Assembly (NCBI GenBank): GCA_021821305.1
Contig: JAKACP010000001.1
Location: 404,349 to 468,348, forward strand
Direction: 5' to 3'
DNA from: a bacterium
GTDB taxonomy: Bacteria > Patescibacteriota > Minisyncoccia > Moranbacterales > UBA1568
DNA: 64,000 nucleotides
The notes below the pieces were generated by a model. The model worked only from the letters and a program-made list of their open reading frames with translations, did not search any database and had not been told where the DNA came from. The number at the start of each line of letters is the position of its first letter. Position 1 is the stretch's first letter. Below are positions 8,809 through 59,402 of the stretch, in pieces. The position numbers and the translations under genes are program-made.

Positions 8809-8898
8809 TTTCCAAATACTATGAACCCCAGCGGACCCCGTTTCGTCGGGACCGCGGGTCGGGTCGGGTGAATGAAAAGGCTCTTTCGGGGGAGAGAG

Positions 8899-9095
8899 CT
8901 TTTTCTTTCTCAATTTATCGGTGTTTGGCACCTCACCCTACCCGGTGTCTCCCGTTTCCGACCGCACCCTCACCGCCCGGTCTTTTCCTTCGAAAAACTT
9001 CCCTCACTCGACGGCATCCCGAGAATATTTTCCGGGAAAACAGGGGCTTGCTCAAACAATGTGCGGTTCCCGGCGAACGGAAGACATCGGGTCGG
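8899..9095 (+). repeat. Copy 1 of the 3-copy conserved intergenic element (core 8956-9073), degenerate copy
   Basis: Near-identical to 52193-52397 across a core of about 120 nt: ttccgaccgcaccctcaccgc...cctcactcgacggcatcccgagaatattttccgggaaaacaggggcttgctcaa...gtgcggttcccgg. It is flanked by the imperfect inverted repeat cccggtgtctcccg / cgggagacatcggg. Copies 1 and 2 share homology over about 55 nt beyond the core. A frameshift relative to the other copies argues against protein coding. Confidence 0.85.
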
Positions 9096-9352
9096 CGATA
9101 CGCGAGCGCTTCCCGGCCGGCATTTCCTTCTTCCGGCCGTTTGGCATCGGAAGCGTGCATGGTTCCGCCGGAGGCGGAGAGCGACGATGGCAAAGAATGA
9201 TTTTCCTCGCAGGGGAAAATCATGTGCCGGAAGAAGGAAATGCCGAGACGTAGAAGCGGCTAGGGAGCGCAGAGACTTGATTTTTTCCCGTATCCGTGTC
9301 ATATTTCTTTCTCCTTTCCGCTCACCACCGACTACCTGCTACGTACTGAAAT

Positions 9353-21843: not shown

Positions 21844-21844
21844 A

Positions 21845-22030: not shown

Positions 22031-22032
22031 TT

Positions 22033-25312: not shown

Positions 25313-25352
25313 CTCTATCATAAAAAAATAAACATAAGTAAAGAAAAATCAT

Positions 25353-26705: not shown

Positions 26706-26722
26706 GAGGAATGATACGGCTT

Positions 26723-26762
26723 CGAGGATCCTCTCCGACAAGAGAGGATCCTCGTCTTTTTT
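26723..26762 (+). terminator. Rho-independent terminator
   Basis: 13-bp stem cgaggatcctctc-cgacaa-gagaggatcctcg followed by tcttttttg. Confidence 0.8.
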
Positions 26763-42167: not shown

Positions 42168-42241
42168 GGTCGCATAGTTCAGTTGGTTAGAACGTTCGAT
42201 TCACATTCGAAAGGTCCCTGGTTCGAGTCCAGGTGCGACCA
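42168..42241 (+). tRNA. tRNA-Val (anticodon CAC)
   Basis: Manual fold: acceptor GGUCGCA/UGCGACC, U8, D-stem GUUC/GAAC, anticodon stem UUCGA/UCGAA with loop UUCACAU (CAC), T-arm CCUGG-UUCGAGU-CCAGG. No encoded CCA. Upstream promoter TGGACA-17-TAAGAT (42117-42146). Confidence 0.85.
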
Positions 42242-42349
42242 CAAAAAAGAGGGTCAGTGGTTCCCCGCCCGACCAGAATGACTTCGGTCATTCGGGCGGG
42301 GAGTCCACTATCATCCACCATATTCTCCGTTTCGGTTGTAGTAACGGGC

Positions 42350-45026: not shown

Positions 45027-45099
45027 GGGTGCGTAGCTCAGTTGGTAGAGCAGTGGCCTTTTAAGCCAACGGTCGAGGGTTCGAGCCCCCCCGCACCCA
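45027..45099 (+). tRNA. tRNA-Lys (anticodon UUU)
   Basis: Manual fold: acceptor GGGUGCG/CGCACCC, D-stem GCUC/GAGC, anticodon loop CUUUUAA (UUU), T-loop UUCGAGC. One A-C mismatch in the T-stem and G27-A43. No encoded CCA. A terminator follows at 45106-45135. Confidence 0.75.
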
Positions 45100-45105
45100 C
45101 ACATG

Positions 45106-46964: not shown

Positions 46965-46978
46965 GCATACACTCATCT

Positions 46979-48133
46979 ATGACACTCCTGACGATTCTCC
47001 TGTTTTTCCTTCTGCTCGGACTGCTCGTGTTCGTGCATGAGATGGGTCATTTCCTGACCGCGATCCGAAACGGCATCAAGGCCGAGGAGTTCGGTTTCGG
47101 TTTTCCGCCGCGTCTCGTGGGGGCCGTGAAGGATGATACGAGCGGAAAGTGGAAGGTGGTCTGGGGGAACAGGCACGTCCACGGCAAGAACACGGTCTAC
47201 TCCTTCAACTGGATCCCGTTCGGCGGGTTCGTCCGGATCAAAGGAGAGGACAGTAACTCGATCACCGCGCCGGACAGCTTCGCGGGCAAGCCGGCCTGGA
47301 CGCGCATCAAGGTGCTCGGCGCCGGCGTATTCATGAACTTCGCGCTCGCCTGGGTACTCCTTTCCATCGTGCTCATGCTCGGATTCCCACAGCCGGTGAC
47401 GGACGAGAACCGCGCCTTGGTCGACCGGGTGGATATCCAGATACTCTCGGTCGCCAAGGATTCTCCCGCGGAGACCATGGGTATCAAACCCGGCGACCGG
47501 GTATTGTCCGTTGACGGTGTCGCCATGACGGATCTGGAGCAGGTCCAAGCGGCGATCCAGGACAAACGGGGGACCGAAATCTCGATGACGATCGACCGTT
47601 TCGGCGAGATGCTCACGCTCTCCGGCACGCCCCGCCTCGCCACTCCCGAAAACGAGGGAGCACTCGGTATTTCCTTCGCGGAAACGGCCATCATCGGTTA
47701 TGCCTGGTACGAGGCGCCGATACGCGGAGCGCAGGCGACCTATCATACGACCGGTGCGATTCTCGGCGCGCTCGGCAACATCGTGAAAAACGTCTTCATC
47801 GGCGAGAAGGCGGGAGTCGACGTGACCGGTCCGGTCGGCATCGTCGTCATGACCAAACAGATGAGCGATCTCGGCATCCCGTATCTCCTCCAGTTCGCCG
47901 CCATCCTCTCCATCAACCTCGGTATCTTCAATATCCTTCCGTTTCCGGGACTCGACGGCGGCCGTATCCTCTTCATCCTCATCGAGAAGATCAAGGGCTC
48001 TCCGGTCAAGGAAACGGTGGAACAGTGGGCGCATACGGTGGGGTTCTTGCTTCTCCTCCTTCTCATGATCTTCGTGACGATCAAGGACGTGGCCGACCTC
48101 AAGCTTCTCGAGAAGATCGGCAATCTGTTCTAA
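46979..48133 (+). CDS. rseP: RIP metalloprotease RseP (site-2 protease, M50 family)
   Basis: HEMGH zinc motif in TM1, a PDZ domain (GIKPGDRVLSVDGVAM), and the LDGG motif (NILPFPGLDGGRILF). Confidence 0.95.
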   Translation: MTLLTILLFFLLLGLLVFVHEMGHFLTAIRNGIKAEEFGFGFPPRLVGAVKDDTSGKWKVVWGNRHVHGKNTVYSFNWIPFGGFVRIKGEDSNSITAPDSFAGKPAWTRIKVLGAGVFMNFALAWVLLSIVLMLGFPQPVTDENRALVDRVDIQILSVAKDSPAETMGIKPGDRVLSVDGVAMTDLEQVQAAIQDKRGTEISMTIDRFGEMLTLSGTPRLATPENEGALGISFAETAIIGYAWYEAPIRGAQATYHTTGAILGALGNIVKNVFIGEKAGVDVTGPVGIVVMTKQMSDLGIPYLLQFAAILSINLGIFNILPFPGLDGGRILFILIEKIKGSPVKETVEQWAHTVGFLLLLLLMIFVTIKDVADLKLLEKIGNLF

Positions 48134-48350
48134 GGCTCATTCAGCTTATCTTTTTCCGATTCGTCCCGGATCTTCCTTTTCGCGGTACGCGGTTTTCCTG
48201 CTGAAAAATCTCTCGATGATGCCGCCGGCCGCGGCATCAGTGCCCGCGAAAAGAAAATCCGAGCCGAATATCGGAGCGGGAGCTCTTTTTGTCGAGCCCT
48301 TCAGCTGTTTGTTCAAAAACTCCTTTTATCGGGGGTTTTCTTTCGTACTC

Positions 48351-48379
48351 TTGACAATTCTTGATTTTTTTGCTATGAT
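48351..48379 (+). promoter_or_regulatory. Sigma70 promoter of the Wzz-like gene at 48428
   Basis: TTGACA (48351-56), 17-nt spacer, TATGAT (48374-79), with an extended TGc just upstream. Confidence 0.6.
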
Positions 48380-48427
48380 ATCGGGTCGAAATGGTGGCAT
48401 GTCATTAATCGAGGGAATCTCATTCTT

Positions 48428-49069
48428 ATGGCAAACGTCTCTTTTTTCAGCGTTCTTCGGCGGAATGCCGGCAGTATCGCTTTTATCGGTATTTTGGCGA
48501 GCGCGCTCGGGATGGCATTCGTGTTTTTGTCAGGCGCCGATTACGAGGTCAGGACGGACTACCTCGTGAGTCAGGAGGGCGTCGAATCGAAAGACTACTA
48601 CACGGTGGCCCGCTCCGCCGAATACATGGGCAAAATCCTCGGCGAGGTCATGTACAGCGAGAAATTCATGAATGCCTCGCTCGAGACCGGCAAGATGAGC
48701 CAGGATTTCTTTCCGGCGGGAAAACAGGATCGGCTGAGGGCATGGAGCTCCGCCGTGAAGGTGGAGAAGCAGCTCGACTTGGGTATCCTCTCCGTCACCG
48801 TTCTGCATGACAATGACCGCGAAGCGATGCGGGTCTCCCAGGCGGTCTCCCAGGTGCTGATCGAGAAGAACAATCTCTTCCTCGGCACGGGTGAGAAGCC
48901 GGTGCCCGTCTCGATCCTCTCCGGTCCGATCGTGGAGCGGAACCCGAGCATGAAGGAAGTGCTCGCGGCGGTCTTCGGAGGGTTTTTCTTCGGAGTACTG
49001 ATCGCTTCGGTCCTGTTCTTCCTCAAGCAGGAGGTGTTCCGAAAGGAATTGAAACCATACGGAGTCTGA
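48428..49069 (+). CDS. Wzz-like polysaccharide chain-length determinant family membrane protein (putative)
   Basis: N-terminal TM (IAFIGILASALGMAFVFL), a periplasmic domain of about 150 aa, and a C-terminal TM (VFGGFFFGVLIASVLFFL). Same architecture as 23168-23776. Confidence 0.5.
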   Translation: MANVSFFSVLRRNAGSIAFIGILASALGMAFVFLSGADYEVRTDYLVSQEGVESKDYYTVARSAEYMGKILGEVMYSEKFMNASLETGKMSQDFFPAGKQDRLRAWSSAVKVEKQLDLGILSVTVLHDNDREAMRVSQAVSQVLIEKNNLFLGTGEKPVPVSILSGPIVERNPSMKEVLAAVFGGFFFGVLIASVLFFLKQEVFRKELKPYGV

Positions 49070-49190
49070 CCGATCTTCCTCATCCGGAGGAACGTGATTC
49101 TTCCGGAAAAGGAGAACCGGTCGGCATGACGAAGGTCATGCGCGGTCTCTCGCACATTTACAATTTTTTGCTATCAAAAGGAGATCTACC

Positions 49191-50087
49191 ATGTCGAAAA
49201 TCGGATGGAACGTATTGTTCGTCGCACTGCTCGTTACGGGCTGCGCGACGGCGCCGAATGCCATCCGGTTGACGGATGGTGAAGGCAAAGAGGCGAAGGT
49301 GGTCCGCTCCATGGGTATCGATCCGGTGATGTTCTCCGGATTGCCGTGGACGGATGCCCTCAAGAACGGGAACTTCGTGACCGTGCTCGGAGTGTTCCCC
49401 GGGACTCCCGAAAGCTACGCCGAATGGGATCCGCTTCGGATCCGCTACCAGGCGCATGCAGTCGGGGCTTCCGGACGGGAATATGCCGCCTACGCGGTGT
49501 TCGCCGGCTTCATCAACTGTGTCCCGCGCTACTTCGTCGTCGTCGAAGGCTTGCAAGAGCCCTTGGCGGATGTGAAGGCGATCACGCTTTCCACGCTTCT
49601 CACCCGCGCATACGATCTGCAGGGGAAAGAGGTGAAAGTCGATGCCGCGAAGCTGCAAAACAGCGCCGCGTATCGGAGGGAACTGATCGAGCGTGAAGGA
49701 ACGTCGCTTGCGGCGGTCCGCCCGATACAGGGGATGCAGCGTGCGTTCGACGGCTGGAGCGTGTATGACACGAAATCCGGTCGGATCGCGACGCCGCTCG
49801 ACGAGGCCAAGGTCAAGTACCTGTCCGGCATCAATCCCCAGTATTCGTATTGGGAAAAAGTGACCGGATCCGCCAGAGCATCGGTGAGTCCCGATTACGT
49901 GTCGACCTCGGTCGGTATCGTATTCGATCTCATCGCCGCCACGAAGGTGAAGGCGCAGGGATTCGACTATGAATCCGTGATGTCCCGCAGCCAGCAAGGG
50001 TACAACCTGGCAGTCTTGGAAGCCCTGCGTCAAGCGGGGGAGAAGAGCTGTCGCATCGCTGAAATGAAGGAGAGGAGTCGACCATGA
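49191..50087 (+). CDS. Hypothetical lipoprotein
   Basis: RBS aaggag. Lipobox LLVTGC|A. 298 aa. No family recognised. 4-nt overlap with the next gene. Confidence 0.65.
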   Translation: MSKIGWNVLFVALLVTGCATAPNAIRLTDGEGKEAKVVRSMGIDPVMFSGLPWTDALKNGNFVTVLGVFPGTPESYAEWDPLRIRYQAHAVGASGREYAAYAVFAGFINCVPRYFVVVEGLQEPLADVKAITLSTLLTRAYDLQGKEVKVDAAKLQNSAAYRRELIEREGTSLAAVRPIQGMQRAFDGWSVYDTKSGRIATPLDEAKVKYLSGINPQYSYWEKVTGSARASVSPDYVSTSVGIVFDLIAATKVKAQGFDYESVMSRSQQGYNLAVLEALRQAGEKSCRIAEMKERSRP

Positions 50088-52072
50088 CACACCCAAACGA
50101 ACCGGGCTTCGGTCCGGATCCCACGGGATCGTCTTCGGGCGATTCCACCCACACCGCAACTCTCGCCGAAAGGAGAAGGGCAGTGAGATCCCATAAAGCG
50201 AAACGGGATCTCAAGCGTCTCGCTTGGATCCTGCTCGGCCTGGTGGCACTCATCGCGTTCCTCGTGTTTTTCGCGAAGCGTGATGACGTGGAGCCGCTTG
50301 TCTCGAAACCCATAACCCCTCCGGCCGCTACCCAAATGGCACCGGAAAAGGTCACGCCCGCCGAGGCCAAGCCCGCAAAGGCCGAACCCGAAGCGAAGCC
50401 GGAAGGAACGTACTACACGTTCCGCGACGGCGATCGGATGTTCCAATTGTTCGGAAAATCCGGGGCGTTGAAAGTTCAACAGGCCAACCCCGAACTGATC
50501 AAGGATATCAACAGGATCAGGAAGGGTGACACCGTCCTCGTGCCGGCAGACGTGAAGATTCACAAGATGCCGGCATTCCGTATCGTGGATTGCTCCAGGA
50601 CCAGAAAAGGGTTCTGCGAGTACAGGAATCCCGGCGGCGACAAGATGTGCGGTGTGCGGAGCCACGAGAAAGCTCTCACGAGTCCTCAGGAATACGGTCT
50701 TACCGCCGAACAAGCGGCGACCGTCATGGGTGACAAGGGCGAGCGCGTACTCCTCCCATCCGGGACGAGACTTTCCGCGCTTTCGTTCGGTCATGGCCAC
50801 TGGCAGGGCCCCGTCGTCCTCATGAAGGACATGTTGGCTCATCGCAAAGCGGTTATCGGCGGCAAAACGTACCTTGAGTTCGATGCCTGCTGTAACTTGG
50901 CCACCATGGAAGTTCCCCCGGAACCCGTACCGCTTGAACCCGAACCGATCCCAGAACCGCCTCCGGCTCCGGTCGAGGAACCACCACCCGTGATTCCGGA
51001 ACCTCCTCAAGAGCCGAAAGAGCCCGAGGAAGGACCGCCGCCCGTACCGCCGCTGTCCGCTTTCCCTGTCGAGAACGAACTCGAGTGGGAAGCGATCGTC
51101 GGTGCCGGTGTGTGGAACAACGGCCTCGCGAATGGCAAGTGGTGGTATGGTGAAGGACTGCTCTCGGTGAAGCTCGGAGACGGGTATTCGCTGGGCATCG
51201 GTCCTTTCTATGCCGCGGGCAAAGGCGAAAGCGAAACTTCCGCGTATACGTGGAGGGAGAGCACCGGTTGGGGCCCACAGGTCGGCTTGAAGCGGAACTA
51301 CCGCGCCGAGCAGACCGATGAGTTCGGACAGACCGTCCTCCTCCCGGCCGGCTGGCAGCTGAAAGCACGCTTCCTCTCGCATGACAAAGTGTCCGGCGGG
51401 AACCCCGAGTCCGGGTATCACAATACCCAGTGGGGCAAGAAGATCGGTGTCTACGGCGAGTACTTCGAGCGCAAGAGTCTTGATTGGCTCTATGGCGTGT
51501 CCGGAGAAATCTGGCACTACTATGACGGACGCATCCGGTCGACGTGGTCCGGGGACAAACCCCAGGATCGCGGCAGCTGGAACGCCAACGTCTATGCCCA
51601 GTATCGTATCAACGACGACTGGCAGGCACGGGGAATCGCAGGCGTGGCCCATCAGAATTGGGACCGCCTGAACTACCTCAACCTGACGGCCGAGATGCGG
51701 TATCGGGAAACCCTCATGTTCGGTCCTCGCCTGTCGCTCGCTCTCAACAAGCCCGACACGTACCGCGACATCGGTCGCGGCGACCTCACGACACTCGGCG
51801 CATTCGTGCGTCTCGAACTCGGCGGAATCATCCGCCAGAAAGATCGCGAAGTTCGCGAAGAGAGCGTGGTGTTCGTAGGACCGACGACCGATCCGGTGGA
51901 CGAGGGAGCAGTCGCTCCCGCCCCCATGAGCGCTTCTCCGGAAGCCGAAGGGGGGTACCTGCCTGTCGCCTATGAGGCTCCGCCCGTCGGAGCCGAGCAG
52001 GCGGTCGTCCCTGCTACGGAGAATCCGGAAGTGACGTCCTCTTGGGGACCGAGCTCGGACTCCGGGCCGTAA
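50084..52072 (+). CDS. Large membrane-anchored protein with LysM-like domain, Pro-rich linker and a C-terminal Trp/Tyr-rich beta domain
   Basis: Single N-terminal TM (LAWILLGLVALIAFLVFF). LysM-like segment GTYYTFRDGDRMFQLFGKSG...INRIRKGDTVLVP. A (PEP)n linker. The C-terminal 330 aa is rich in W/Y/G (GKWWYGEGLLSVKLGDGYSLGIGPFY...). The antisense 681-aa ORF (50030-52075) is rejected as a mirror ORF. Confidence 0.7.
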   Translation: MTHPNEPGFGPDPTGSSSGDSTHTATLAERRRAVRSHKAKRDLKRLAWILLGLVALIAFLVFFAKRDDVEPLVSKPITPPAATQMAPEKVTPAEAKPAKAEPEAKPEGTYYTFRDGDRMFQLFGKSGALKVQQANPELIKDINRIRKGDTVLVPADVKIHKMPAFRIVDCSRTRKGFCEYRNPGGDKMCGVRSHEKALTSPQEYGLTAEQAATVMGDKGERVLLPSGTRLSALSFGHGHWQGPVVLMKDMLAHRKAVIGGKTYLEFDACCNLATMEVPPEPVPLEPEPIPEPPPAPVEEPPPVIPEPPQEPKEPEEGPPPVPPLSAFPVENELEWEAIVGAGVWNNGLANGKWWYGEGLLSVKLGDGYSLGIGPFYAAGKGESETSAYTWRESTGWGPQVGLKRNYRAEQTDEFGQTVLLPAGWQLKARFLSHDKVSGGNPESGYHNTQWGKKIGVYGEYFERKSLDWLYGVSGEIWHYYDGRIRSTWSGDKPQDRGSWNANVYAQYRINDDWQARGIAGVAHQNWDRLNYLNLTAEMRYRETLMFGPRLSLALNKPDTYRDIGRGDLTTLGAFVRLELGGIIRQKDREVREESVVFVGPTTDPVDEGAVAPAPMSASPEAEGGYLPVAYEAPPVGAEQAVVPATENPEVTSSWGPSSDSGP

Positions 52073-52162
52073 CAAGATCTCCTCTTGGGATATGCTCTAA
52101 CCGTTGTGTTTTCGACGTAGATATAATCGTCGGACGGTGAGAATCCCTGGAAAGCAATACCG

Positions 52163-52200
52163 AAGACCTGCGTTTGAGCTCATCGCAGGTCTTTTCTTTT
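52163..52200 (+). terminator. Rho-independent terminator
   Basis: aagacctgcg-tttgagctcat-cgcaggtctt followed by ttctttttctc. Confidence 0.75.
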
Positions 52201-52221
52201 TCTCAATTTCTCGGTATTTTG

Positions 52222-52397
52222 CACATCACCTTACCCGGTGTCTCCCGTTTCCGACCGCACCCTCACCGCTCCCTGTTTTCTTTCCGGAAAATATTCCTCA
52301 CTCGACGGCATCCCGAGAATATTTTCCGGGAAAACAGGGGCTTGCTCAAGCAACGTGCGGTTCCCGGTGAACGGGAGACACCGGGTTGGTGATGGTG
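52222..52397 (+). repeat. Copy 2 of the 3-copy conserved intergenic element (core 52249-52367), best-preserved copy
   Basis: 28-bp near-perfect terminal inverted repeat cacatcaccttacccggtgtctcccgtt (52222-49) / aacgggagacaccgggttggtgatggtg (52370-97). Internal perfect 13-bp hairpin ccggaaaatattc (52284-96) / gaatattttccgg (52317-29). Core is about 95% identical to copy 3. Confidence 0.9.
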
Positions 52398-52438
52398 TGG
52401 CACCGGTCGGGAGGCGGTCGTGGAAAGGTCACGGAGGC

Positions 52439-52467
52439 TTGACAAAAATAACAAAAAGGTGTATGAT
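52439..52467 (+). promoter_or_regulatory. Sigma70 promoter of secreted protein gene A
   Basis: TTGACA (52439-44), 17-nt spacer aaaataacaaaaaggtg, TATGAT (52462-67). Nearly identical to the promoter at 53071. Confidence 0.65.
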
Positions 52468-52546
52468 TGGATGTTCCTGAAGTTTGGAGTTCCTCCAAGC
52501 AGGGGAACGTCGTACGTTTCCAACCAGAGCCCAAGGAGGGTTTATC

Positions 52547-52954
52547 ATGAAGAAATTGTTCGTACTTGTCGCCCTGGCTGCCGCGTTCAGCGCTCAGGCC
52601 GCGACCCAGCAGTTCAACCCCAGTGTCGTCGTTTCGGCGACCATGGATGGAAAGGGCAATGCGGTTATTGCCTGGACCGACCCCATGCAGGTCAAGGCCA
52701 TCGAGCACTATGTCGGTCATGGAAAAAAAGGCGGGTTCGTCAACACGATCCCCGTCGGCTCGGCCAAACAGGTTGTCCTCAAGGACATCGCCAAGAACGG
52801 TGGGCGCTTCAATCTCGTCGGTACCAACGGCAAGTATCTGCACCTCGAGTGCGGCGGCAACCCGAATACCGTCATGCCTACCTTCAAAGGCCTGGGGAAC
52901 GACTGCTCGTTCGAAGTGAACGGCCAAAAAGTCGGCGCCCTGGTCGTCCAGTAA
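52547..52954 (+). CDS. Small secreted Cys-containing protein, paralog A (135 aa)
   Basis: RBS aaggaggg lies 7 nt before the ATG. Signal peptide MKKLFVLVALAAAFSAQA|AT. The mature domain aligns with paralog B (GKGNAVIAWT/GDGSYTVSWT; IEHYVGHG/IEHFHGVK; GGRFNLVGTNGKYLHLECGG/GNPRFNGLHKGLWMLWECSA). Terminator at 52976-53010. Confidence 0.75.
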   Translation: MKKLFVLVALAAAFSAQAATQQFNPSVVVSATMDGKGNAVIAWTDPMQVKAIEHYVGHGKKGGFVNTIPVGSAKQVVLKDIAKNGGRFNLVGTNGKYLHLECGGNPNTVMPTFKGLGNDCSFEVNGQKVGALVVQ

Positions 52955-52975
52955 CTCTGGCAACTACGCGGCCAA

Positions 52976-53010
52976 CCCTGATTCCGAACGGAGTCAGGGT
53001 TTTTGTTTTC
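52976..53010 (+). terminator. Rho-independent terminator
   Basis: ccctgattc-cgaacg-gagtcaggg followed by tttttgttttc. Confidence 0.75.
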
Positions 53011-53070
53011 TCGTTTTTTTGTCGCGCAGATCCGGAGAGGTCTCCGATATGGCGCAGAATTTTCCCTCTT

Positions 53071-53099
53071 GACAAAAATCGAAAAAAGGCGTATGGTGA
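53071..53099 (+). promoter_or_regulatory. Sigma70 promoter of secreted protein gene B
   Basis: TTGACA (53071-76), 17-nt spacer aaaatcgaaaaaaggcg, TATGGT (53094-99). Confidence 0.65.
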
Positions 53100-53185
53100 A
53101 GCGTCCACCTCATGGGCCCTATAGAAAAGCCATGGGTGTGGACACACGCCCCTGTCCATTAACATTCTTCTATAGGAGGTCAATC

Positions 53186-53623
53186 ATGACCAAACTTTTT
53201 TCTTTTCTCCTCTCCGCGTTCGTGGCTTCCGCCGCATTCGCATTCGCCGCTCCCGCGAGCGCCGATACCTTCGATGTTCCATCGAGCGCACGTCTTTCGT
53301 GCAAAGCGAACGGTGACGGAAGCTACACGGTTTCCTGGACCGGCGTCACGCTCGACACCATCGAGCACTTCCACGGCGTCAAAACCGCCGGGTGGAAGAC
53401 CCCGATCGTCCTCAATGGTGCCAAAGTGGCTCATTTCAAAGGTGGCAACCCGCGTTTCAACGGGCTGCATAAGGGCCTGTGGATGCTGTGGGAGTGCAGC
53501 GCGCAGACCCCGAAAGGCGTCTTGGCAAAAGGCGACCCCCGCCTCAAAGGCATCGGTATCGCCTGCGACTGGCTCGACCCGGCCGACGGGCAGCCCAAAG
53601 CTGCTCTGGAGTGCGTTCGTTAA
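53186..53623 (+). CDS. Small secreted Cys-containing protein, paralog B (145 aa)
   Basis: RBS aggaggt lies 6 nt before the ATG. Signal peptide MTKLFSFLLSAFVASAAFAFAAPASA|DT. Four Cys. Paralogous to 52547-52954. Confidence 0.75.
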   Translation: MTKLFSFLLSAFVASAAFAFAAPASADTFDVPSSARLSCKANGDGSYTVSWTGVTLDTIEHFHGVKTAGWKTPIVLNGAKVAHFKGGNPRFNGLHKGLWMLWECSAQTPKGVLAKGDPRLKGIGIACDWLDPADGQPKAALECVR

Positions 53624-53642
53624 GAACGCTTTTCCCTCCACG

Positions 53643-53683
53643 ACCCCTCGTTCGCATAATGCGTCGAGGGGTTGATTTTTTTG
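53643..53683 (+). terminator. Rho-independent terminator
   Basis: acccctcg-ttcgcataatgcgt-cgaggggt followed by tgatttttttg. Overlaps the -35 of the next promoter (TTGATT 53672, TATGGT 53694). Confidence 0.7.
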
Positions 53684-53734
53684 TATGAATATGGTATGGT
53701 ATACTGTCCTATAAATGACATCGCACGGCAGCCT

Positions 53735-55204
53735 ATGAACATGTTTTCCAGCGCCGACAAGGAATCGGAGATGCGGGCGTTCGTTCTCCTCGCGTTGCTC
53801 CTCGGCGGCTATTCGCTCGCCAACGTGCTCGTCGGTCCGTTTTGGCCGGCTTTCTTCGGGCTCGTCGTTCCCGCGGCCGTCCTCGCGTTCCTCTATCCGC
53901 GCGCGGGACTGTTCGTATCCGTCGCGATGACGGTGTTCTTCGAGCGGTTCTACACTCTCTCGCCGCTTGTCATCGGTGAAGCGCAGTACAAGGTCTACGC
54001 CCTCGATGCGGTGCTTGCGGCGTCGTTCGTCTCGGCATTGCTCCTGTGGATGCGGGAAGGGAAACGGTTTTCCCGGTTCCGCTCGTCCGATTGGCTACTC
54101 CTCTCGTTTTTTGGCATCGTGACGGCCATCTTTCTTTTCGAACTTCTCGTGCCTTCGGAGACGAACGTCGCGACGGCGTTTTCCACGTGGAAGAACTACG
54201 TATTCTACGGAGCGCTCTTTTTCCTCGTATCATACGGTCTGCGGACGCGGGATGATATCTTTTTCTTCGCACGGCTCTTCCTGTGGAGCATCGCGGCCGC
54301 CGGTATCTTTCTCCTTATCGGTATCGCGCGCGGTGGGGGATTGTGGACCGAATACACACCGCTCTCGACCGCGGGGACGCGGTTCCTCGCGTTTCCGCAC
54401 GCGTTCTACTTCTCGCTCGGCTTCCTCTCCATATTCTTCTCGTCGCCGTTCTGGCTTGTCGATCCGCGACGGAGCCGTCTTCTCTTCTGGCTCTCGGCCG
54501 TGCTCATCGCCGGCATACTCGGATCGCTCATGCGGCACCTGTGGCTCGGCATCGGCGGAGCCATGGTCTTCGGCTTCCTCTTCTTTCCGTCGGAATACAG
54601 AAGGGCGTTCATCCGTACGGCCCTGCCGTTTCTCGCCGTGGCCGCATCGTCCCTGCTCATTTTCTGGAGCGCGCTCGCGCTTTTTCCGCAGAGCGATATC
54701 CGCGGCGATACGCGATACGTCGCGGACATCCTTTCGGAGCGGATCTTCTCGATCGGCAACCGATACGATGAGAGCCTGGCCTGGCGCGAAGGCGTATGGA
54801 CGAGCGCGATGGCGGAGTTCCGACGGAGCCCGATTTTCGGTATCGGGTTCGGCGCGCAGGTCCCCGTCGAGCTCGGCGACTACCGGTCCTACGTCGAGGT
54901 CCGCAACATGCACAACTCCTGGCTCGCGATGCTCATACAGACCGGCCTCGTGGGTGCGGCGGTCTTTCTCGGATTCCTCGTATCGCTTTGTCTCACGTTG
55001 TTCCGGGCCCACTCCGGCGACCGGTTCTTCGGTGCCATGAAATACGGACTTATGGGGCTCATCGTCTTCCAGTGCCTCGTCTTCTTTTCCCAGCCGTATC
55101 TCGAGACGAATCTTCTCGGCATCTTCTTCTGGATCACGCTCGGAGTGGCGCGGGCGGTGACCGATATGCCGAAAAGTAAGCCGGCCCAGCGAATTGGAAA
55201 TTAG
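53735..55204 (+). CDS. O-antigen ligase family protein (Wzy_C / RfaL-like polytopic membrane protein)
   Basis: About 12 TMs plus a large external loop carrying NMHNSWLAMLIQTGLVGAAVFLGFL (O-antigen ligase signature, H within the loop). The start is uncertain (53735, 53741 or 53771). The ORF-track start at 53672 lies inside the terminator/promoter. Confidence 0.75.
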   Translation: MNMFSSADKESEMRAFVLLALLLGGYSLANVLVGPFWPAFFGLVVPAAVLAFLYPRAGLFVSVAMTVFFERFYTLSPLVIGEAQYKVYALDAVLAASFVSALLLWMREGKRFSRFRSSDWLLLSFFGIVTAIFLFELLVPSETNVATAFSTWKNYVFYGALFFLVSYGLRTRDDIFFFARLFLWSIAAAGIFLLIGIARGGGLWTEYTPLSTAGTRFLAFPHAFYFSLGFLSIFFSSPFWLVDPRRSRLLFWLSAVLIAGILGSLMRHLWLGIGGAMVFGFLFFPSEYRRAFIRTALPFLAVAASSLLIFWSALALFPQSDIRGDTRYVADILSERIFSIGNRYDESLAWREGVWTSAMAEFRRSPIFGIGFGAQVPVELGDYRSYVEVRNMHNSWLAMLIQTGLVGAAVFLGFLVSLCLTLFRAHSGDRFFGAMKYGLMGLIVFQCLVFFSQPYLETNLLGIFFWITLGVARAVTDMPKSKPAQRIGN

Positions 55205-55215
55205 AGATTAGCGTC

Positions 55216-56394
55216 ATGCGCATACTCGAAGTCAACAAATTCTATTATCCGAGGCGGGGAGCCGAACGGCATTTCCTCGATCTCATCGCGCTCCTCGAAT
55301 CGCACGGCCACGAGGTGGCCGTCTTCGCCATGGACGATCCGCGGAATGTTTCCGGGAAGTATGCGAAATACGCCGTGAGCGCCGTCGGATACAACCGGGA
55401 CGATTCGACACGGTGGCAACGGATCGTCGGGATAGGGCGGCTCTTCTGGTCGTTCGAGGCCCGGGCGAAGATGCGGGCCCTGCTCGACGAGTTCCGCCCG
55501 GACATCGTCCATATCCACAACGCCTACCACCAGCTCTCGCTCTCGTTCCTGCCCGTCATCCGCAGGCGCGGGGTTCCGATCATGCAGACCGTCCATGACT
55601 ATCACCTGATCTCGCCCGACAAGGACGAGTACCATTCGTCCGTCGGCCGCGCGTACTGGAAGTTTCTCTTCGTGCCGAAATACGGCTTCGGCAAGCGTCT
55701 CCTCCTCGTGCTCAAATCCTATTGGGAGCGGCTCTGGGGATTCCGGGACATGGTGGACGTCTATATTGCGCCGAGCCGGTTCGTCGAAGAGACGCTCGTG
55801 CGAGGCGGCATCCCCGGATCGAAGATCACCGTCATTCCGCATTTCATCTCCTCTTCGCCGGCCGTCGTTTCCGAAGCGGAACCATCGGAACCGTACGCGC
55901 TCTACTTCGGCGGCATCACCGAGGAAAAGAATATCCGCGAGCTCGCGGCGATCTTCGAGAAACTCAGATTCCGACTCGTGCTCGCGGGTAGCCGCCGCAT
56001 GGATATTCCCCAAGGACCGTACGTGGACTCTGTCGGCGAAAAGACGGAGGACGAACTCAAGGCGCTCATCGCCGGGTCGTCGTTCGTCGTGTCCGCTTCG
56101 CGACTACCGGAAACGTTCGGGCTCATCGTGCTCGAGGCGAATATCCAGGGGAAGCCGTTTCTCGGGTATCGGACCGGCGCGTTCCCCGAGCTTGTCGACA
56201 ATGACAGGAACGGTTGGCTTGCGGTAAACAAGGGAGAGTTCGAGCTTTTTGTGACTCGGTTCGTGAAAGGAGAAATGAGGGCGATGGAACCGGAGGCGAT
56301 ACGGCGCGCGGCTTTGGAAAAATACGGGGCCGATACCTATCTCGGGAAGTTTTCTTCCATAGTCCGGTCGATACGGCGGAGTGAGTCTGCCTAA
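55216..56394 (+). CDS. Glycosyltransferase family 4
   Basis: N-terminal MRILEVNKFYYPRRGAERHFLDLI. C-terminal ETFGLIVLEANIQGKPFLGYRTGAFPELVDN (EX7E). Confidence 0.85.
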   Translation: MRILEVNKFYYPRRGAERHFLDLIALLESHGHEVAVFAMDDPRNVSGKYAKYAVSAVGYNRDDSTRWQRIVGIGRLFWSFEARAKMRALLDEFRPDIVHIHNAYHQLSLSFLPVIRRRGVPIMQTVHDYHLISPDKDEYHSSVGRAYWKFLFVPKYGFGKRLLLVLKSYWERLWGFRDMVDVYIAPSRFVEETLVRGGIPGSKITVIPHFISSSPAVVSEAEPSEPYALYFGGITEEKNIRELAAIFEKLRFRLVLAGSRRMDIPQGPYVDSVGEKTEDELKALIAGSSFVVSASRLPETFGLIVLEANIQGKPFLGYRTGAFPELVDNDRNGWLAVNKGEFELFVTRFVKGEMRAMEPEAIRRAALEKYGADTYLGKFSSIVRSIRRSESA

Positions 56395-56471
56395 GGCCGT
56401 TTGCCAGAAATTCGCTCTCGCGTTGTAATACGGGGTAGAAGCGGTTCTTTCACATTCATGGAGGGTTTGTC

Positions 56472-56705
56472 ATGACTTCGATGACTTCGCGTGGGGCCCT
56501 CCCGATCAGGGGCCTGATGAAACTGATCGTCTTCCTGGTGTTGCTCGCCGCGCTTATCTGGCACTTCGTTCTGGAATACGAACGATACGCGGAAGGCGAG
56601 TTCCTCAAGAAAATCTATCAGGAATCGGTCCAGAGGATGAAATTTCTCGACGACTGTGATTGTGTCAAACGATTGAAGCCCTCACCGACGGACACGATAG
56701 GGTGA
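56472..56705 (+). CDS. Hypothetical small single-TM protein (77 aa) with a C-terminal DDCDC motif
   Basis: RBS ggaggg lies 7 nt before the ATG. TM LMKLIVFLVLLAALIWHFV. Confidence 0.45.
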   Translation: MTSMTSRGALPIRGLMKLIVFLVLLAALIWHFVLEYERYAEGEFLKKIYQESVQRMKFLDDCDCVKRLKPSPTDTIG

Positions 56706-56769
56706 AGGAGTTCGATCAAGTCAGGCGGGTGCATGGAAATATGCCCCGCCTTTCTCTTCGTTCAGGGTC

Positions 56770-56798
56770 TTGACATGATCCATCTTTCGGTATATATT
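56770..56798 (+). promoter_or_regulatory. Sigma70 promoter
   Basis: TTGACA (56770-75), 17-nt spacer, TATATT (56793-98), upstream of the small gene at 56836. Confidence 0.55.
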
Positions 56799-56835
56799 GT
56801 GGCCATCGATGTTCTTTTCTTGAAGGGAGACTCTC

Positions 56836-57045
56836 ATGGCTACACAGCTCAAACGGAAGGGAATCTTCCTTCTCGGGGTTCTCGTCGGTGCGGCACTCTC
56901 GGTTTCGGCCGGAATCGTCGATATGGAACGGACGCCCCAGGCTCCGGACGTGATCATCTACGGACCGATACCGTCGGACATCACGCCGACCCTCAAATAC
57001 GATTACGTTCCCATCCACGCTGAGAACGATCACGTGTTCACCTGA
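56836..57045 (+). CDS. Hypothetical small secreted protein (69 aa)
   Basis: RBS gggag. Signal-like MATQLKRKGIFLLGVLVGAALSVSAG. Terminator at 57061-57096. Confidence 0.45.
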   Translation: MATQLKRKGIFLLGVLVGAALSVSAGIVDMERTPQAPDVIIYGPIPSDITPTLKYDYVPIHAENDHVFT

Positions 57046-57060
57046 AAGGTGGAAAACCGA

Positions 57061-57096
57061 AAGCGGAAAGGACAAATCCTTTCCGCTTTTTCTTTG
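57061..57096 (+). terminator. Rho-independent terminator
   Basis: agcggaaagga-caaa-tcctttccgct followed by ttttctttg. Confidence 0.75.
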
Positions 57097-57104
57097 TTCC
57101 ACTT

Positions 57105-57260
57105 CGAACGGTGCATCACATGTGCCGGGAACCGCGCATTGTTTGAACAAGCCCCTGTTTTCCCGGAAAATATTCTCGGGATGCCGTCGAGTGAGGAATA
57201 TTTTCCGGAAAGAAAACAGGGAGCGGTGAGGGTGCGGTCGGAAATGGGATGCACCGTTCG
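57105..57260 (-). repeat. Copy 3 of the 3-copy conserved intergenic element (core 57125-57243), inverted orientation
   Basis: The reverse complement matches the core of copy 2 at about 95%. It is flanked by a different perfect 13-bp inverted repeat, cgaacggtgcatc (57105-17) / gatgcaccgttcg (57248-60). The internal 13-bp hairpin is conserved. The small hairpin uugcu-ca-agcaa of copy 2 reads uuguu-ca-aacaa here (C-G to U-A compensatory change). Confidence 0.9.
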
Positions 57261-57287
57261 GTCAATGGATGATCCTTCGGCTTGAGG

Positions 57288-59402
57288 TCACTTGCCGATC
57301 GCGATGCGCGCGTCGATGACGCGGAAATTGTCCGCGTCGGGAAAGACGTTGACCGGATTGATGTCGAGTTCCCGTATTTCCGGGAAATCCTCGACAAGCC
57401 GTGAGAGACGTTCGAGCAATTCGACGATGTGGTCGGTATCGATCCTGGCTTCGCCACGGGCGCCGTCGAGGATCGAGGCGCTCCGCAGTTCCGAGAGCAT
57501 CTCGAGGGCGTCCTCGCGGACGATCGGCGCGAAGCGGAACGATGCGTCGTTCAGCACTTCGGTGTAGATGCCGCCCATGCCGACGACGAGCACGGTGCCG
57601 AGCCCCGGTTCCTGCTTCGCTCCGAAGATGAGCTCCTTGCCTCCGGACATCGCCATCTCGACGATCATCGCGCCTTCGAGGCGCGCCTCGGGGGCCTTCA
57701 TGCGCACCCGGTGGAGGAGCTCTCCGAATTTCTGTCCCGCTTCCTCGGGTGCGACGTTGAGCATGACGCCGCCCAATTCCGTCTTATGTATGATGTCCGG
57801 GGAAACGATCTTGAGGACGACCGGCCGGCCGATCTCCCGCGCCGCCTTGTCCGCTTCCTCGGGACTGCGGACATAGGTGCTCCGGAGGATCGGAAATCCG
57901 TACGCGCGGAGGACCTCGTAGGCCTCGCGCTCGTAGAGCATGGTGCGCTCCTCGGCGAAGACGCGCGCGAAGATTTCCTTCGCCCGGTCACGGTCGATAT
58001 CGGGGAATTCACGCTTCGCGGAGAAACCGCCCGACCGCCACTTCGCCACCTGTGCCATGGAACCGAGCGCCTTCGCTCCCTCTTCGGGATAGGCGAAGAC
58101 GGATACTCCCGCTTCCCTGAGTATTTCCGCTCCCGCCTCGAGGAGCGACGATCCGGCGAAGACCGCGACGACGGGCTTGCCGCAGGATCGTTTGGTTTCC
58201 ACGATGGCGCGTGCCGTCTCTTCGGCTTCCGTCATGGACTGCGGCGTGAGGATCACGAGCAGGCTGTCCACACCCTCTTCCGCCGACACGAGTTCGAGCG
58301 CCGCGCGGTATCGGTCGCTCTTGGCGTCTCCGAGGACGTCCACCGGATTCTCGACGCTCGCCGCCTGGGGGAGCGCCCGGTGGAGCGCGGCCTTGGTGTC
58401 GTCGGAGAGGGCGGCCAATGTGAGGCCGGCCCGGCTCGCCGCGTCGGTCGCGAGCACGCCGGGTCCGCCGGCGTTGGTGATGATGGCGACGGAACTCCCG
58501 CGGGGGAGGGGATTCTTGGAAAAGATCGACACGGCGTCGAGCAGTTCGCGGAGCGTGTCGGCGCGGAGCATGCGCGATTGCCGGAAGATCGACTCATACG
58601 CGGCCTCGGAACCGGCGAGCGCGCCGGTATGCGAGCTCGTCGCCTTTATCCCGCTCTCGCTCCGTCCCGACTTGAGGCCGATGATGGGCTTGGGTTCGGC
58701 GCGGGAGATCGCGCTCCGGCCGATTTCGACGATCGCGGCCGCATCGGTGAGGTTTTCGGAATAAAACGACACTACCTTGGTCGAGTCATCCTCGGCGAAG
58801 AAGGTAAGGAGCGCCTTCTCGTCGATCACCGCCTTGTTGCCGGTGCTCACGAACTTGGAGAAGCCGACTTCCCCTCGGGCGAGGTCGAGCATGGCGGTGC
58901 AGAGCGCACCTGACTGCGAGAAGAACGCGACCGGGCCGTCGTCAGGCAGTACGGGTGCGAACGAGGCGTTGAGACCGATCTTCGGGTGCAGGAACCCGAG
59001 ACAGTTCGGTCCGAGGAGCGCGATGCCGTATTGTCCGGCGATCGTCGCGACCGTGTCTTCGAGCACCTTGCCGTCCGGCCCGGTTTCCTTGAATCCGGCC
59101 GAGATGATGGCGGCCGCCCTGATACCTTTTTCTCCGGATTGCCGGAGCACTTCCGGGACGATGGCGGCCGGGACGATGATGATGGCGAGCTCCGGCGTGC
59201 CGGGGACGCTCGCGAGGTCTGGGTAGCAGGGGACGCCGAAGAGTTCGGTGGTTTTCGGATTGACGAGGAAGGTCTCTCCCGCGAATTCGCCTTGGGTGAG
59301 ATTTTTCGCGATGTCGTTCCCGACGCTTCCCGGAGTGGTCGAGGCCCCGATGACGGCGATCGACTTCGGCGAGAACAATATATTGAGATCGGAGGTCTGC
59401 AT
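57288..59402 (-). CDS. Acetate--CoA ligase (ADP-forming), fused alpha/beta subunits (acetyl-CoA synthetase, NDP-forming)
   Basis: N-terminal CoA-binding Rossmann domain (KSIAVIGASTTPGSVG), succinyl-CoA-synthetase-like domains with a phosphohistidine loop region, and a C-terminal ATP-grasp domain. The start at 59402 (cat 59400-02) lies downstream of a minus-strand promoter. The ORF-track start at 59480 would lie upstream of that promoter. Confidence 0.8.
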   Translation of the reverse strand: MQTSDLNILFSPKSIAVIGASTTPGSVGNDIAKNLTQGEFAGETFLVNPKTTELFGVPCYPDLASVPGTPELAIIIVPAAIVPEVLRQSGEKGIRAAAIISAGFKETGPDGKVLEDTVATIAGQYGIALLGPNCLGFLHPKIGLNASFAPVLPDDGPVAFFSQSGALCTAMLDLARGEVGFSKFVSTGNKAVIDEKALLTFFAEDDSTKVVSFYSENLTDAAAIVEIGRSAISRAEPKPIIGLKSGRSESGIKATSSHTGALAGSEAAYESIFRQSRMLRADTLRELLDAVSIFSKNPLPRGSSVAIITNAGGPGVLATDAASRAGLTLAALSDDTKAALHRALPQAASVENPVDVLGDAKSDRYRAALELVSAEEGVDSLLVILTPQSMTEAEETARAIVETKRSCGKPVVAVFAGSSLLEAGAEILREAGVSVFAYPEEGAKALGSMAQVAKWRSGGFSAKREFPDIDRDRAKEIFARVFAEERTMLYEREAYEVLRAYGFPILRSTYVRSPEEADKAAREIGRPVVLKIVSPDIIHKTELGGVMLNVAPEEAGQKFGELLHRVRMKAPEARLEGAMIVEMAMSGGKELIFGAKQEPGLGTVLVVGMGGIYTEVLNDASFRFAPIVREDALEMLSELRSASILDGARGEARIDTDHIVELLERLSRLVEDFPEIRELDINPVNVFPDADNFRVIDARIAIGK

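What the first reader, a model, noticed from the sequence alone, without database searches (positions are those of the whole stretch)
52193..52400. Previously unrecognised ~150-nt conserved non-coding element family, three copies in 64 kb, each nested inside a long inverted repeat
Three intergenic loci share a core of about 120-150 nt, seen directly at 8956-9073, 52249-52367 and 57125-57243 (inverted). Copies 2 and 3 are about 95% identical.

- Every copy contains an internal hairpin, ccggaaaatattc / gaatattttccgg. It is perfect over 13 bp in copies 2 and 3 and degenerate in copy 1.
- A second small hairpin shows a compensatory change between copies 2 and 3: uugCu..aGcaa versus uugUu..aAcaa.
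- Each core sits in the loop of a long outer inverted repeat: 28 bp near-perfect in copy 2, a different 13-bp perfect repeat in copy 3, and a decayed version in copy 1.
- Indels shift the reading frame between copies, so it is not a protein gene.

The features fit either a structured small-RNA family with a variable closing helix, or a MITE-like mobile element that carries or targets palindromes. I do not recognise it as any Rfam family. No transposase or reverse transcriptase is nearby.
Basis: seen in the sequence. Interest (0 to 1): 0.85.

Follow-up and report, generated by a model that had tools for sequence, protein, structure and literature searches.

The report
Palindromic intergenic repeat family in CPR bacterium
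A real, undescribed ~190-base non-coding repeat that folds into a long nested hairpin occurs at several gene ends in a small-genome candidate-phyla-radiation (Moranbacteria-like) bacterium and its relatives, and it behaves mainly like a mobile or recombining palindromic DNA element of the ERIC/REPIN/MITE kind, with no direct evidence so far that it is a small-RNA gene.

Summary
Three intact copies lie at 8909-9100(+), 52202-52395(+) and 57099-57286(-), each about 190 nt. A fourth, decayed copy lies at about 48150-48300(-).

What supports a mobile or recombining DNA palindrome:
- No Rfam, plasmid, phage or E. coli match, and no conserved ORF.
- The host is a high-GC, Moranbacteria-like CPR bacterium. 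Relatives with 72-88% identical flanking protein carry the element, or a remnant, or nothing at the same sites.
- A strain with 99.5% identical flanks carries a diverged copy at the copy-2 site in the opposite orientation.
- Short-read contigs break inside the element.
- The nested hairpin is kept through many double (compensatory) changes. G-U and A-C mismatches are equally frequent, so there is no strand-specific RNA signal.
- The element occurs in both orientations relative to transcription and has no promoter or terminator of its own.

What keeps a functional reading open:
- It is more conserved (76-81%) than synonymous sites (51-68%).
- Its unpaired loops are the most conserved parts.

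Best reading: a non-autonomous palindromic repeat family, homogenised by gene conversion and lost by hairpin deletion. It forms a 3'-UTR hairpin when transcribed. A functional structured RNA is not excluded. It does not meet the MITE or REPIN definitions.

The parts
52202..52395 (+). Copy 2, the best-preserved full-length element. It has a left extension (52202-52232), a mid stem (52233-52249 / 52370-52386), an internal loop with CCCTCACCG, an inner hairpin (52271-52296 / 52317-52339 with a TTT bulge and a 20-nt loop at 52297-52316) and a small hairpin (52342-52353).
   Evidence: 60 of 62 pairs are Watson-Crick. The left breakpoint of the strain polymorphism falls exactly at 52202.
8909..9100 (+). 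Copy 1, full length. The left arm of its inner hairpin carries a different (L028/L010-like) variant, so the hairpin is partly broken. This is a mosaic or gene-conversion pattern.
   Evidence: The site has no element in relatives L020 and L023.
57099..57286 (-). Copy 3. It starts 1 nt after the stop codon of the ADP-forming acetyl-CoA synthetase gene and ends before that gene's bidirectional terminator. Its core is identical to copy 2, and its mid stem differs by compensatory changes.
   Evidence: The same site and orientation are occupied in L019. It is identical in strain L028.
48150..48300 (-). Decayed fourth copy between the Peptidase_M50 stop codon and its terminator, antisense to the gene. 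It is orthologous in position and orientation to the intact copy in relative L010.
   Evidence: Local alignment to the reverse complement of copy 2 gives z 5.8, with 0 of 500 shuffles as high. There is a weak covariance-model hit at 48166-48262 minus.
52162..52201 (+). Host intrinsic terminator of the upstream 662-aa gene. The element begins directly after its T-tail. The terminator is conserved in relatives that lack the element.
52396..52437 (+). The rest of the strain-polymorphic segment (52202-52437) between the element and the downstream promoter. It is replaced by different sequence in strain L028.
52439..52467 (+). Host promoter (TTGACA-17-TATGAT) of the small secreted-protein gene downstream of copy 2. 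It is not part of the element.
   Evidence: It is conserved in L010, L011 and L028.
8880..8908 (+). Host terminator-like hairpin and T-tail directly upstream of copy 1, conserved in L020.
57053..57093 (-). Host bidirectional terminator downstream of copy 3.

Best explanation
This is a family of about 190-nt non-coding, nested-palindromic interspersed repeats. It is specific to a narrow clade of high-GC Moranbacteria-like CPR bacteria.

Shown:
- It spread to several intergenic sites next to gene 3' ends and terminators.
- It is inherited at some of those sites.
- In relatives it is replaced, inverted, reduced to remnants or absent at those sites.

Inferred:
- Copies within a genome are homogenised by gene conversion.
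- Absences and remnants arise by deletion of the hairpin interior.
- Spread and maintenance act on DNA. Either an enzyme supplied in trans recognises the conserved single-stranded loops of a DNA hairpin (a RAYT/HUH-like logic), or replication template switching re-copies one arm from the other, or both. The second process would also explain the perfectly matched, fast-changing stems and the outer repeats partly built from host flank.
- When the host gene is transcribed through the element, the RNA carries a very stable hairpin of about -100 kcal/mol in its 3' UTR. That may protect or process the transcript, as proposed for ERIC and REP elements.
For: Multiple dispersed copies:
- Three intact copies and one decayed copy in 64 kb.

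Orthologous sites vary:
- The copy-2 site has no element in L010. L011 has only the 12-bp palindrome CTCACCGGTGAG there, which matches the outer stem.
- The copy-3 site is occupied in L019, but L010, L011 and L015 have no full element there.
- L026 and L027 lack exactly 151 nt of the interior but keep the left extension and the outer stem.
- The copy-1 site has no element in L020 and L023.

Strain-level change:
- Strain L028 has flanks 99.5% identical to the window. Its copy-2 site carries the element in the opposite orientation, 89% identical over the central core and 81-83% including the mid stems, with different stems.
- That insert is flanked by a 6-bp direct repeat CATACT relative to the L011-like spacer.
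- L015 also has the inverted orientation at this site.

Other support:
- Logan contigs end inside the element.
- G-U and A-C mismatch types number 14 each.
- The element is sense to the neighbouring genes at four sites and antisense at two.
- The consensus scans find no promoter or terminator belonging to the element.
- Identity between copies is mosaic, which indicates gene conversion.
- Three different perfectly paired versions of the apical stem exist.
- Template switching is a published mechanism that makes and repairs perfect stems (PMC8794818).
- REPINs are a precedent for hairpin-forming non-autonomous repeats (PMC3116915).
Against: - No transposase, integrase, HUH enzyme or RT was found in 64 kb. 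No autonomous partner is known.
- No consistent target-site duplication is seen, and the inverted repeats are subterminal.
- Several occupied sites are shared between distant relatives: the ACS 3' site in the window and L019, and the M50 site in the window and L010. That fits old vertical inheritance better than recent hopping.
- Element identity between species (76-81%) exceeds identity at fourfold sites (51-68%), and the unpaired loops are the most conserved parts. Both suggest purifying selection, which a purely selfish decaying repeat would not show.
- Only seven full or partial copies from five genomes could be examined.
Confidence: 0.6

Rival explanations
1. It is a functional structured RNA. 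It would be either a cis-acting element at gene 3' ends (for stabilisation, processing or RNase III targeting) or a multi-copy small RNA. Its conserved C-rich unpaired motifs (CCCUCACCG in the internal loop, CCUCACUCG in the apical loop) would bind a protein or pair with GAGG-like ribosome-binding sites. Duplication would be secondary.
For: - 90.8% of cells are paired, against 39-50% when partners are slid. 14 pairs show double changes, and the covariation score is reached by 0 of 500 shuffles. With six sequences, 15 pairs show double changes.
- The core is more conserved than fourfold-degenerate sites of the neighbouring gene.
- The unpaired loops are the most conserved segments.
- Three copies lie between a stop codon and the terminator (copy 3, L019, L010), and the same ACS 3' site is occupied in lineages sharing only 71% ACS amino-acid identity.
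Against: - G-U does not exceed A-C.
- The M50-site copies are antisense to the gene.
- Copies 1 and 2 lie after a terminator and before the next promoter.
- The consensus scans find no promoter or terminator belonging to the element.
- Copy 1 has a broken hairpin, the 48150-48300 copy has decayed, and close relatives have deleted the element.
- The stems change faster than the loops.
- No Rfam family matches.
Confidence: 0.25
2. It is a DNA-level recombination or regulatory site. It could be an invertible switch (inverton), an attC-like hairpin recombination site, or a protein-bound palindromic operator upstream of cell-surface genes.
For: - Orientation at the copy-2 site, just upstream of the promoter of a secreted-protein / O-antigen-ligase / glycosyltransferase block, differs between strains with 99.5% identical flanks.
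- Copies 2 and 3 are inverted repeats, identical over 80 alignment columns, that bracket this 4.8-kb block.
- A conserved 2-3 nt bulge in the inner stem recalls the extrahelical bases of attC sites (my own knowledge).
Against: - The two orientation alleles are only 81-89% identical and have different stems and flanks, so this is not a simple flip.
- No recombinase gene is present in 64 kb.
- There is no cassette array and no R-box consensus (read from the sequence).
- Gene order of the 4.8-kb block is the same in all relatives that span it.
Confidence: 0.07
3. It is a small protein-coding gene or a gene fragment.
For: Several reading frames are open across the element.
Against: - An indel shifts the frame between copies 1 and 2.
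- No start codon or frame is shared among the window copies, L010 and L019.
- A six-frame translation query found no called protein among 5.8 billion.
Confidence: 0.01

Closest known systems
ERIC / IRU elements of enterobacteria (about 127-bp imperfect palindromes; from my own knowledge of the literature)
   Same: Both are long imperfect palindromes of 100-200 nt, non-coding, and found in intergenic regions next to gene ends. Both are present or absent at orthologous sites between relatives, occur as length variants, lack a transposase and a clear target-site duplication, and have been suggested to act as an mRNA hairpin.
   Different: There is no sequence similarity (no match in 5,426 E. coli genomes). 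The phylum is different (CPR). This element has a nested three-stem architecture with a small side hairpin and an unpaired left extension.
REPINs (REP doublets forming hairpins) mobilised by RAYT transposases (PMC3116915)
   Same: Both are non-autonomous, hairpin-forming, extragenic repeats predicted to fold in ssDNA or mRNA. Doublet or intact forms are better conserved than decayed ones, and the family persists within a lineage.
   Different: Each arm contains no recognisable REP unit. There is no conserved GTAG or CGTC tag (the tag definition is from PMC3733652). No RAYT gene was seen in the window. Copy number is unknown and appears low.
MITEs such as Correia, RUP and Nezha (from my own knowledge)
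   Same: Both are short, non-coding and multi-copy, contain inverted repeats, lie in intergenic positions and cause assembly breaks.
   Different: The inverted repeats are subterminal. The window copies have no target-site duplication; only a possible 6-bp CATACT repeat is seen in one allele of a related strain. No cognate transposase is known.
Hairpins created and maintained by replication template switching (PMC8794818)
   Same: Both show multi-base compensatory changes, perfect stems that differ between copies, and an outer repeat arm that is a reverse-complement copy of host flank (GAGAGTGTGCCG / CGGCATACTCTC in L028).
   Different: Template switching is a mutational process, not an element family. 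It does not explain dispersal to several loci or the conserved loops.

Membership tests
MITE | Short (<500 bp), non-coding, several copies per genome | tested here: met
   About 190 nt. Three intact copies and one decayed copy in 64 kb. No conserved ORF.
MITE | Terminal inverted repeats at the very ends of the element | tested here: not met
   The left 25-30 nt (CTCAATTTCTCGGTATTTTGCAC...) has no inverted partner at the right end. The repeats are internal.
MITE | Target-site duplication of fixed length flanking each copy | tested here: inconclusive
   None is visible at copies 1-3 or at L019 vs L026. A 6-bp CATACT direct repeat flanks the L028 allele relative to the L011 spacer.
MITE | Autonomous partner element with the same ends encoding a transposase | not testable with these tools
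   No transposase in the window. The end sequences occur only in the copies themselves. The rest of the genome could not be read.
REP / REPIN | Two REP units (20-40 bp palindromes) in inverted orientation around a spacer, forming a hairpin | tested here: inconclusive
   The overall hairpin architecture is similar. The arms contain no separate short palindromic unit, as read from the sequence.
REP / REPIN | Conserved GTAG or CGTC tetranucleotide tag at the REP 5' end (PMC3733652) | tested here: not met
   No conserved GTAG or CGTC at the arm ends in the alignments. A CGTC on the minus strand of the apical loop is present only in the window copies.
REP / REPIN | Associated RAYT (Y1 HUH transposase) gene flanked by the repeats | not testable with these tools
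   None among 52 window ORFs scanned against Pfam.
ERIC / IRU | Sequence match to the enterobacterial ERIC consensus | tested here: not met
   No blastn match of the element in 5,426 E. coli genomes, which carry ERIC copies.
Any Rfam 15 RNA family | Covariance-model score at or above the family's gathering threshold | tested here: not met
   Only RNase P and two tRNAs pass in the window. On the elements, the best hits are miRNA-precursor models at 16-20 bits against thresholds of 50-73.
Independent sRNA gene | Own promoter and intrinsic terminator delimiting a transcript | tested here: not met
   Consensus scans find only the host promoter (52439-52467) and host terminators outside the element. 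There is no T-run after the hairpin on either strand. Transcription data are not available.
Integron attC site | R''/R' boxes (RYYYAAC / GTTRRRY), arrays of cassettes, integrase nearby | tested here: not met
   The right ends (GGTTGGTGAT, GGTCGGCGAT, GATTGGCGAC) do not share GTTRRRY. The copies are 5-43 kb apart among housekeeping genes, and there is no integrase. The consensus is from my own knowledge.
Inverton (invertible promoter switch) | The same segment found in both orientations between fixed inverted repeats, with an invertase gene | tested here: not met
   Orientation differs between the window and L028, but the interiors are only 81-89% identical and the flanking stems differ. There is no recombinase in the window.

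The most novel reading that the evidence does not exclude
The element may be a CPR-specific functional hairpin module held under purifying selection. It is more conserved than synonymous sites across lineages that share only 71% amino-acid identity in a neighbouring enzyme. Its loops would be read sequence-specifically by an unknown protein, for example a hairpin-recognising single-strand DNA or RNA enzyme. Its stems would be kept perfectly complementary by self-templated copying. That would make it either a new kind of hairpin-based mobile element without transposase-type ends, or a new 3'-UTR RNA regulator family in reduced genomes.
Probability: 0.2. Interest if true: 0.7.

Novelty: new variant of a known kind. 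Interest (0 to 1): 0.45.

Why it matters
CPR (Patescibacteria) genomes are very small and are usually described as poor in repeats and mobile DNA. I found no paper describing a palindromic repeat family in them.

A dispersed, structure-preserving repeat has several practical and biological consequences:
- It fragments short-read assemblies of these organisms.
- It varies between near-identical strains, so it is a useful marker.
- It could drive rearrangement. Copies 2 and 3 are identical inverted repeats around a cell-surface gene block.

The family also offers a compact natural case for studying how long perfect hairpins are maintained: by selection, by gene conversion or by template switching. 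If the conserved loops prove to be a recognition site, it would point to an unknown hairpin-binding enzyme or RNA regulator in an uncultured lineage.

Tried and rejected
Searches that found nothing useful:
- Two metagenome-contig scans and one viral-contig scan, with a two-anchor pattern and then a degenerate loop pattern, gave 0 hits.
- A concatenated six-frame translation of the element was searched against 5.8 billion proteins, hoping for spurious ORF calls that would reveal more copies. It gave 0 hits.
- Plasmid, phage and E. coli collections gave no match.
- nhmmer and a covariance model (R1) over all fetched DNA found no further intact copies. They gave only the decayed 48166-48262 hit and a weak hit to a different palindrome in L011.

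Explanations rejected:
- Small ORF.
- Retron msr/msd: no RT gene in the window.
- Group II intron or TnpB/IscB omega-RNA remnants: no Rfam signal.
- IS200/IS605-type insertion 3' of a fixed tetranucleotide: the left flanks CTTT, TTTT, TGAC, AAGG and GCTG share nothing.
- attC sites and simple invertons (see the membership tests).

Revised view:
- My early reading that the relatives' sites were clean 'empty sites' proving recent insertion was weakened.
- L026 keeps the left extension and outer stem.
- L011 keeps the outer-stem palindrome.
- The window keeps a decayed copy where L010 has an intact one.
- Many absences are therefore probably deletions or decay.

Full report
**1. Observation.**
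- Reading the three loci and aligning them confirms the shared core, the inner 13-bp hairpin, the small hairpin with its C-G to U-A change, and the outer inverted repeats.
- A 36-nt probe occurs exactly three times against zero expected.
- BLASTN gives 88% identity over 201 nt for copies 1 and 2, and 94.7% over 132 nt for copies 2 and 3.
- Copy 2 folds to -103 kcal/mol on either strand, z about -10.
- This is the only interspersed repeat family found in the window.

**2. True extent.**
- Copies 1 and 2 are homologous from a CTCAA pentamer that directly follows the T-tail of the upstream terminator (8909, 52202) to ...GGYGAT (9100, 52395).
- Copy 3 begins with CTCAAGCC one base after the stop codon of the acetyl-CoA synthetase (ACS) gene (57286, minus strand) and ends near 57099.
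- Each unit is therefore about 190 nt. In order it contains an unpaired left extension, an outer stem (TCRCC/GGYGA), a mid stem of about 17 bp, an internal loop containing CTCACCG, a 23-bp inner stem with a 2-3 nt bulge and a 20-nt loop (CTCACTCGACGGCATCCCGA), and a small side hairpin.

**3. Organism and context.**
- Neighbouring genes are housekeeping: GatA, NUDIX, ABC-F, SecDF, aminoacyl-tRNA synthetases, MreBC, PBP2, RRF, an M50 protease and glycosyltransferases.
- 52 ORFs scanned against Pfam showed no transposase, integrase, HUH enzyme or reverse transcriptase.
- The named homologues of the ACS and ABC-F proteins are mostly Candidatus Moranbacteria / Moraniibacteriota at 53-67% identity. 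The longest contig carrying the exact proteins is 826 kb. GC content is 59%.
- This is a CPR bacterium with a small genome.

**4. Known families.**
- Rfam at gathering thresholds finds only RNase P RNA and two tRNAs.
- Permissive scans of all three copies give only sub-threshold miRNA-hairpin noise.
- Plasmid, phage and E. coli collections give no match.
- No ORF or frame is conserved.
- A six-frame protein query found nothing.
- Literature searches found no description of such repeats in CPR.

**5. Copies elsewhere.** Scans of the three contig collections failed. I therefore fetched syntenic loci of relatives through the flanking proteins and searched them with BLASTN, nhmmer and a covariance model.
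- Intact copies are L010 20975-21129 (ACS 88% identical), L019 7973-8140 (71-72%) and L028 5719-5858.
- Truncated copies sit at contig ends in L009, L015/L016, L029, L030 and L031. The element therefore breaks short-read assemblies, as multi-copy repeats do.
- No copy was found in L011, L017, L020-L027.

**6. Orthologous sites.**
- *Copy-2 site.* L010 has an unrelated 47-nt spacer. L011 has a 27-nt spacer containing the perfect palindrome CTCACCGGTGAG, which equals the element's outer stem. L015 has a copy in the opposite orientation.
- *ACS 3' site.* L019 has a full copy in the same position and orientation as copy 3. L026 and L027 are 84% ACS-identical to L019. They align cleanly on both flanks but lack exactly 151 nt of the interior, while keeping the left extension and outer stem. 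L010, L011 and L015 have short spacers.
- *Copy-1 site.* L020 (92% identical ABC-F) goes from the same terminator straight to the promoter, and L023 also lacks the element.
- *M50 site.* L010's intact copy, antisense to the gene, corresponds in the window to a 150-nt palindrome at 48150-48300. That palindrome retains significant similarity to the reverse complement of copy 2 (z 5.8).
- Sites are thus a mixture of shared, decayed, internally deleted and empty.

**7. Strain-level polymorphism.**
- L028 (ENA ERZ534008, a 198-kb contig) is 99.5% identical to the window on both sides. L028 483-5693 equals window 46991-52201, and L028 5892-12408 equals window 52438-58955.
- The 236 nt at 52202-52437 are replaced by 198 nt carrying the element on the other strand. 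That copy is 89% identical to copy 2 over the central 116 nt and 81-83% including the mid stems, and it has a different mid stem and apical stem.
- The left breakpoint is exactly the inferred CTCAA end.
- Relative to the L011 spacer, the L028 allele reads TCATACT[insert...CATACT]CTCACCTGTGAGCG. This gives a possible 6-bp duplication.
- Its outer repeat GAGAGTGTGCCG / CGGCATACTCTC has a right arm that overlaps host sequence.
- Copy 3 is identical in both strains.
- Whether this arose by a new insertion or by import of a divergent allele through recombination cannot be decided. L028 also differs from the window at the RRF-M50 spacer.

**8. Structure and its evolution.**
- On five full copies, 90.8% of cells pair against 39-50% when partners are slid. 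14 pairs carry double changes (reached by 5 of 500 shuffles), and the covariation score is reached by 0 of 500 shuffles. With L028 added, 15 pairs carry double changes.
- Three perfectly paired versions of the apical stem exist: CCGGAAAATATTC/GAATATTTTCCGG in the window, TCAAAAAATATCC/GGATATTTTTTGA in L010 and L019, and CGAAAAATTCTC/GAGAATTTTTCG in L028.
- The 20-nt loop and the CTCACCG internal loop change little.
- G-U and A-C mismatch types are equal, 14 each (19 vs 16 cells). Nothing therefore points to selection on one RNA strand.
- Identity between copies is mosaic. Copies 2 and 3 are identical over 80 central columns but only about 50-70% identical in the flanking stems. Copy 1 has a foreign left arm and a window-type right arm. 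This indicates gene conversion with tract ends inside the element.
- Between species the core is 76-81% identical. Fourfold-degenerate sites of the ACS gene are 68% (window-L010), 51% (window-L019) and 53% (L010-L019) identical.

**9. Interpretation.**
- The balance of evidence favours a non-autonomous palindromic repeat family acting at the DNA level. The supporting points are dispersal, orientation in both senses, strain polymorphism, decay and hairpin deletion, gene conversion, no strand bias and no transcription signals of its own.
- It does not meet the MITE criteria (terminal repeats, consistent duplication) or the REPIN criteria (REP units, GTAG/CGTC tag; PMC3116915, PMC3733652). It is unrelated in sequence to ERIC.
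- The fast but always compensated stem changes, and the outer repeat made from host flank, fit replication template switching (PMC8794818).
- The conserved loops would fit recognition of a DNA hairpin by an enzyme supplied in trans. That step is inference.
- Conservation above the synonymous rate and shared 3'-UTR sites keep a functional-RNA reading alive at about one in four.

**10. Limits.**
- Only about 64 kb of the source genome and about 300 kb of relatives' DNA could be examined.
- Seven copies from five genomes are too few for firm covariation statistics or for defining the ends.
- No expression data exist.

Noticed in passing
window 9100-9285: A second, unrelated nested palindrome sits directly next to copy 1. 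It has a 20-bp perfect inverted repeat (9118-9137 / 9226-9245), an outer GCGCTTCCCGGCC/GGCTAGGGAGCGC repeat and an inner GATTTTCC hairpin. The RNA fold is -93.5 kcal/mol (z -5.9). It is single-copy in all the data and absent from the orthologous spacer of L020.
   Followed up: partly
window 21841-22033: An intergenic spacer of about 190 nt in a glycosyltransferase cluster, bounded by 22-nt inverted repeats (91% complementary) that start at the upstream stop codon and end at the next ATG. It also has an inner 20-bp inverted repeat. This may be another family of long palindromic spacers.
   Followed up: no
L011 13681-13819 (the window equivalent, 55205-55215, is an 11-nt spacer): The relative has a palindromic insert of about 150 nt between the Wzy_C and GT4 genes, with a 17-bp perfect repeat CCGCCCAATCGTTCTTT/AAAGAACGATTGGGCGG. 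It gives a weak hit to the covariance model (15 bits). The window has almost no spacer there.
   Followed up: partly
window 52249-52344 and 57148-57243: Copies 2 and 3 are inverted repeats with a core identical over 80 alignment columns. They bracket a 4.8-kb block of cell-surface genes: two small secreted paralogues, a Wzy_C O-antigen-ligase-like gene, a GT4 glycosyltransferase and two small ORFs. Recombination between them would invert the block. No inverted arrangement was seen in relatives.
   Followed up: partly
window 52438-52546: The promoter (TTGACA-17-TATGAT) and the roughly 80-nt 5' leader of the small secreted-protein gene are strikingly conserved in L010, L011 and L028, although the adjacent spacer is not. 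This may be a cis-regulatory leader. No Rfam match.
   Followed up: no
L028 320-480 vs window 46965-46978: In a strain otherwise 99.5% identical, the RRF-M50 spacer is 155 nt and AT-rich instead of 14 nt, and the adjacent 320 nt are only 96% identical. This suggests recombination with a divergent lineage.
   Followed up: no
window 19504-19908: RNase P RNA class A scores only 117 bits against a gathering threshold of 100, so it is a divergent version. tRNA-Val (42168-42242) and tRNA-Lys (45027-45100) are also present.
   Followed up: no
window 25497-25805: A run of degenerate GAC/GAA/GAT-rich repeats (Asp/Glu codons on the plus strand) lies inside a region where the longest ORF (25143-26741) is on the minus strand and has no Pfam match. 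The gene call and strand here need checking.
   Followed up: no
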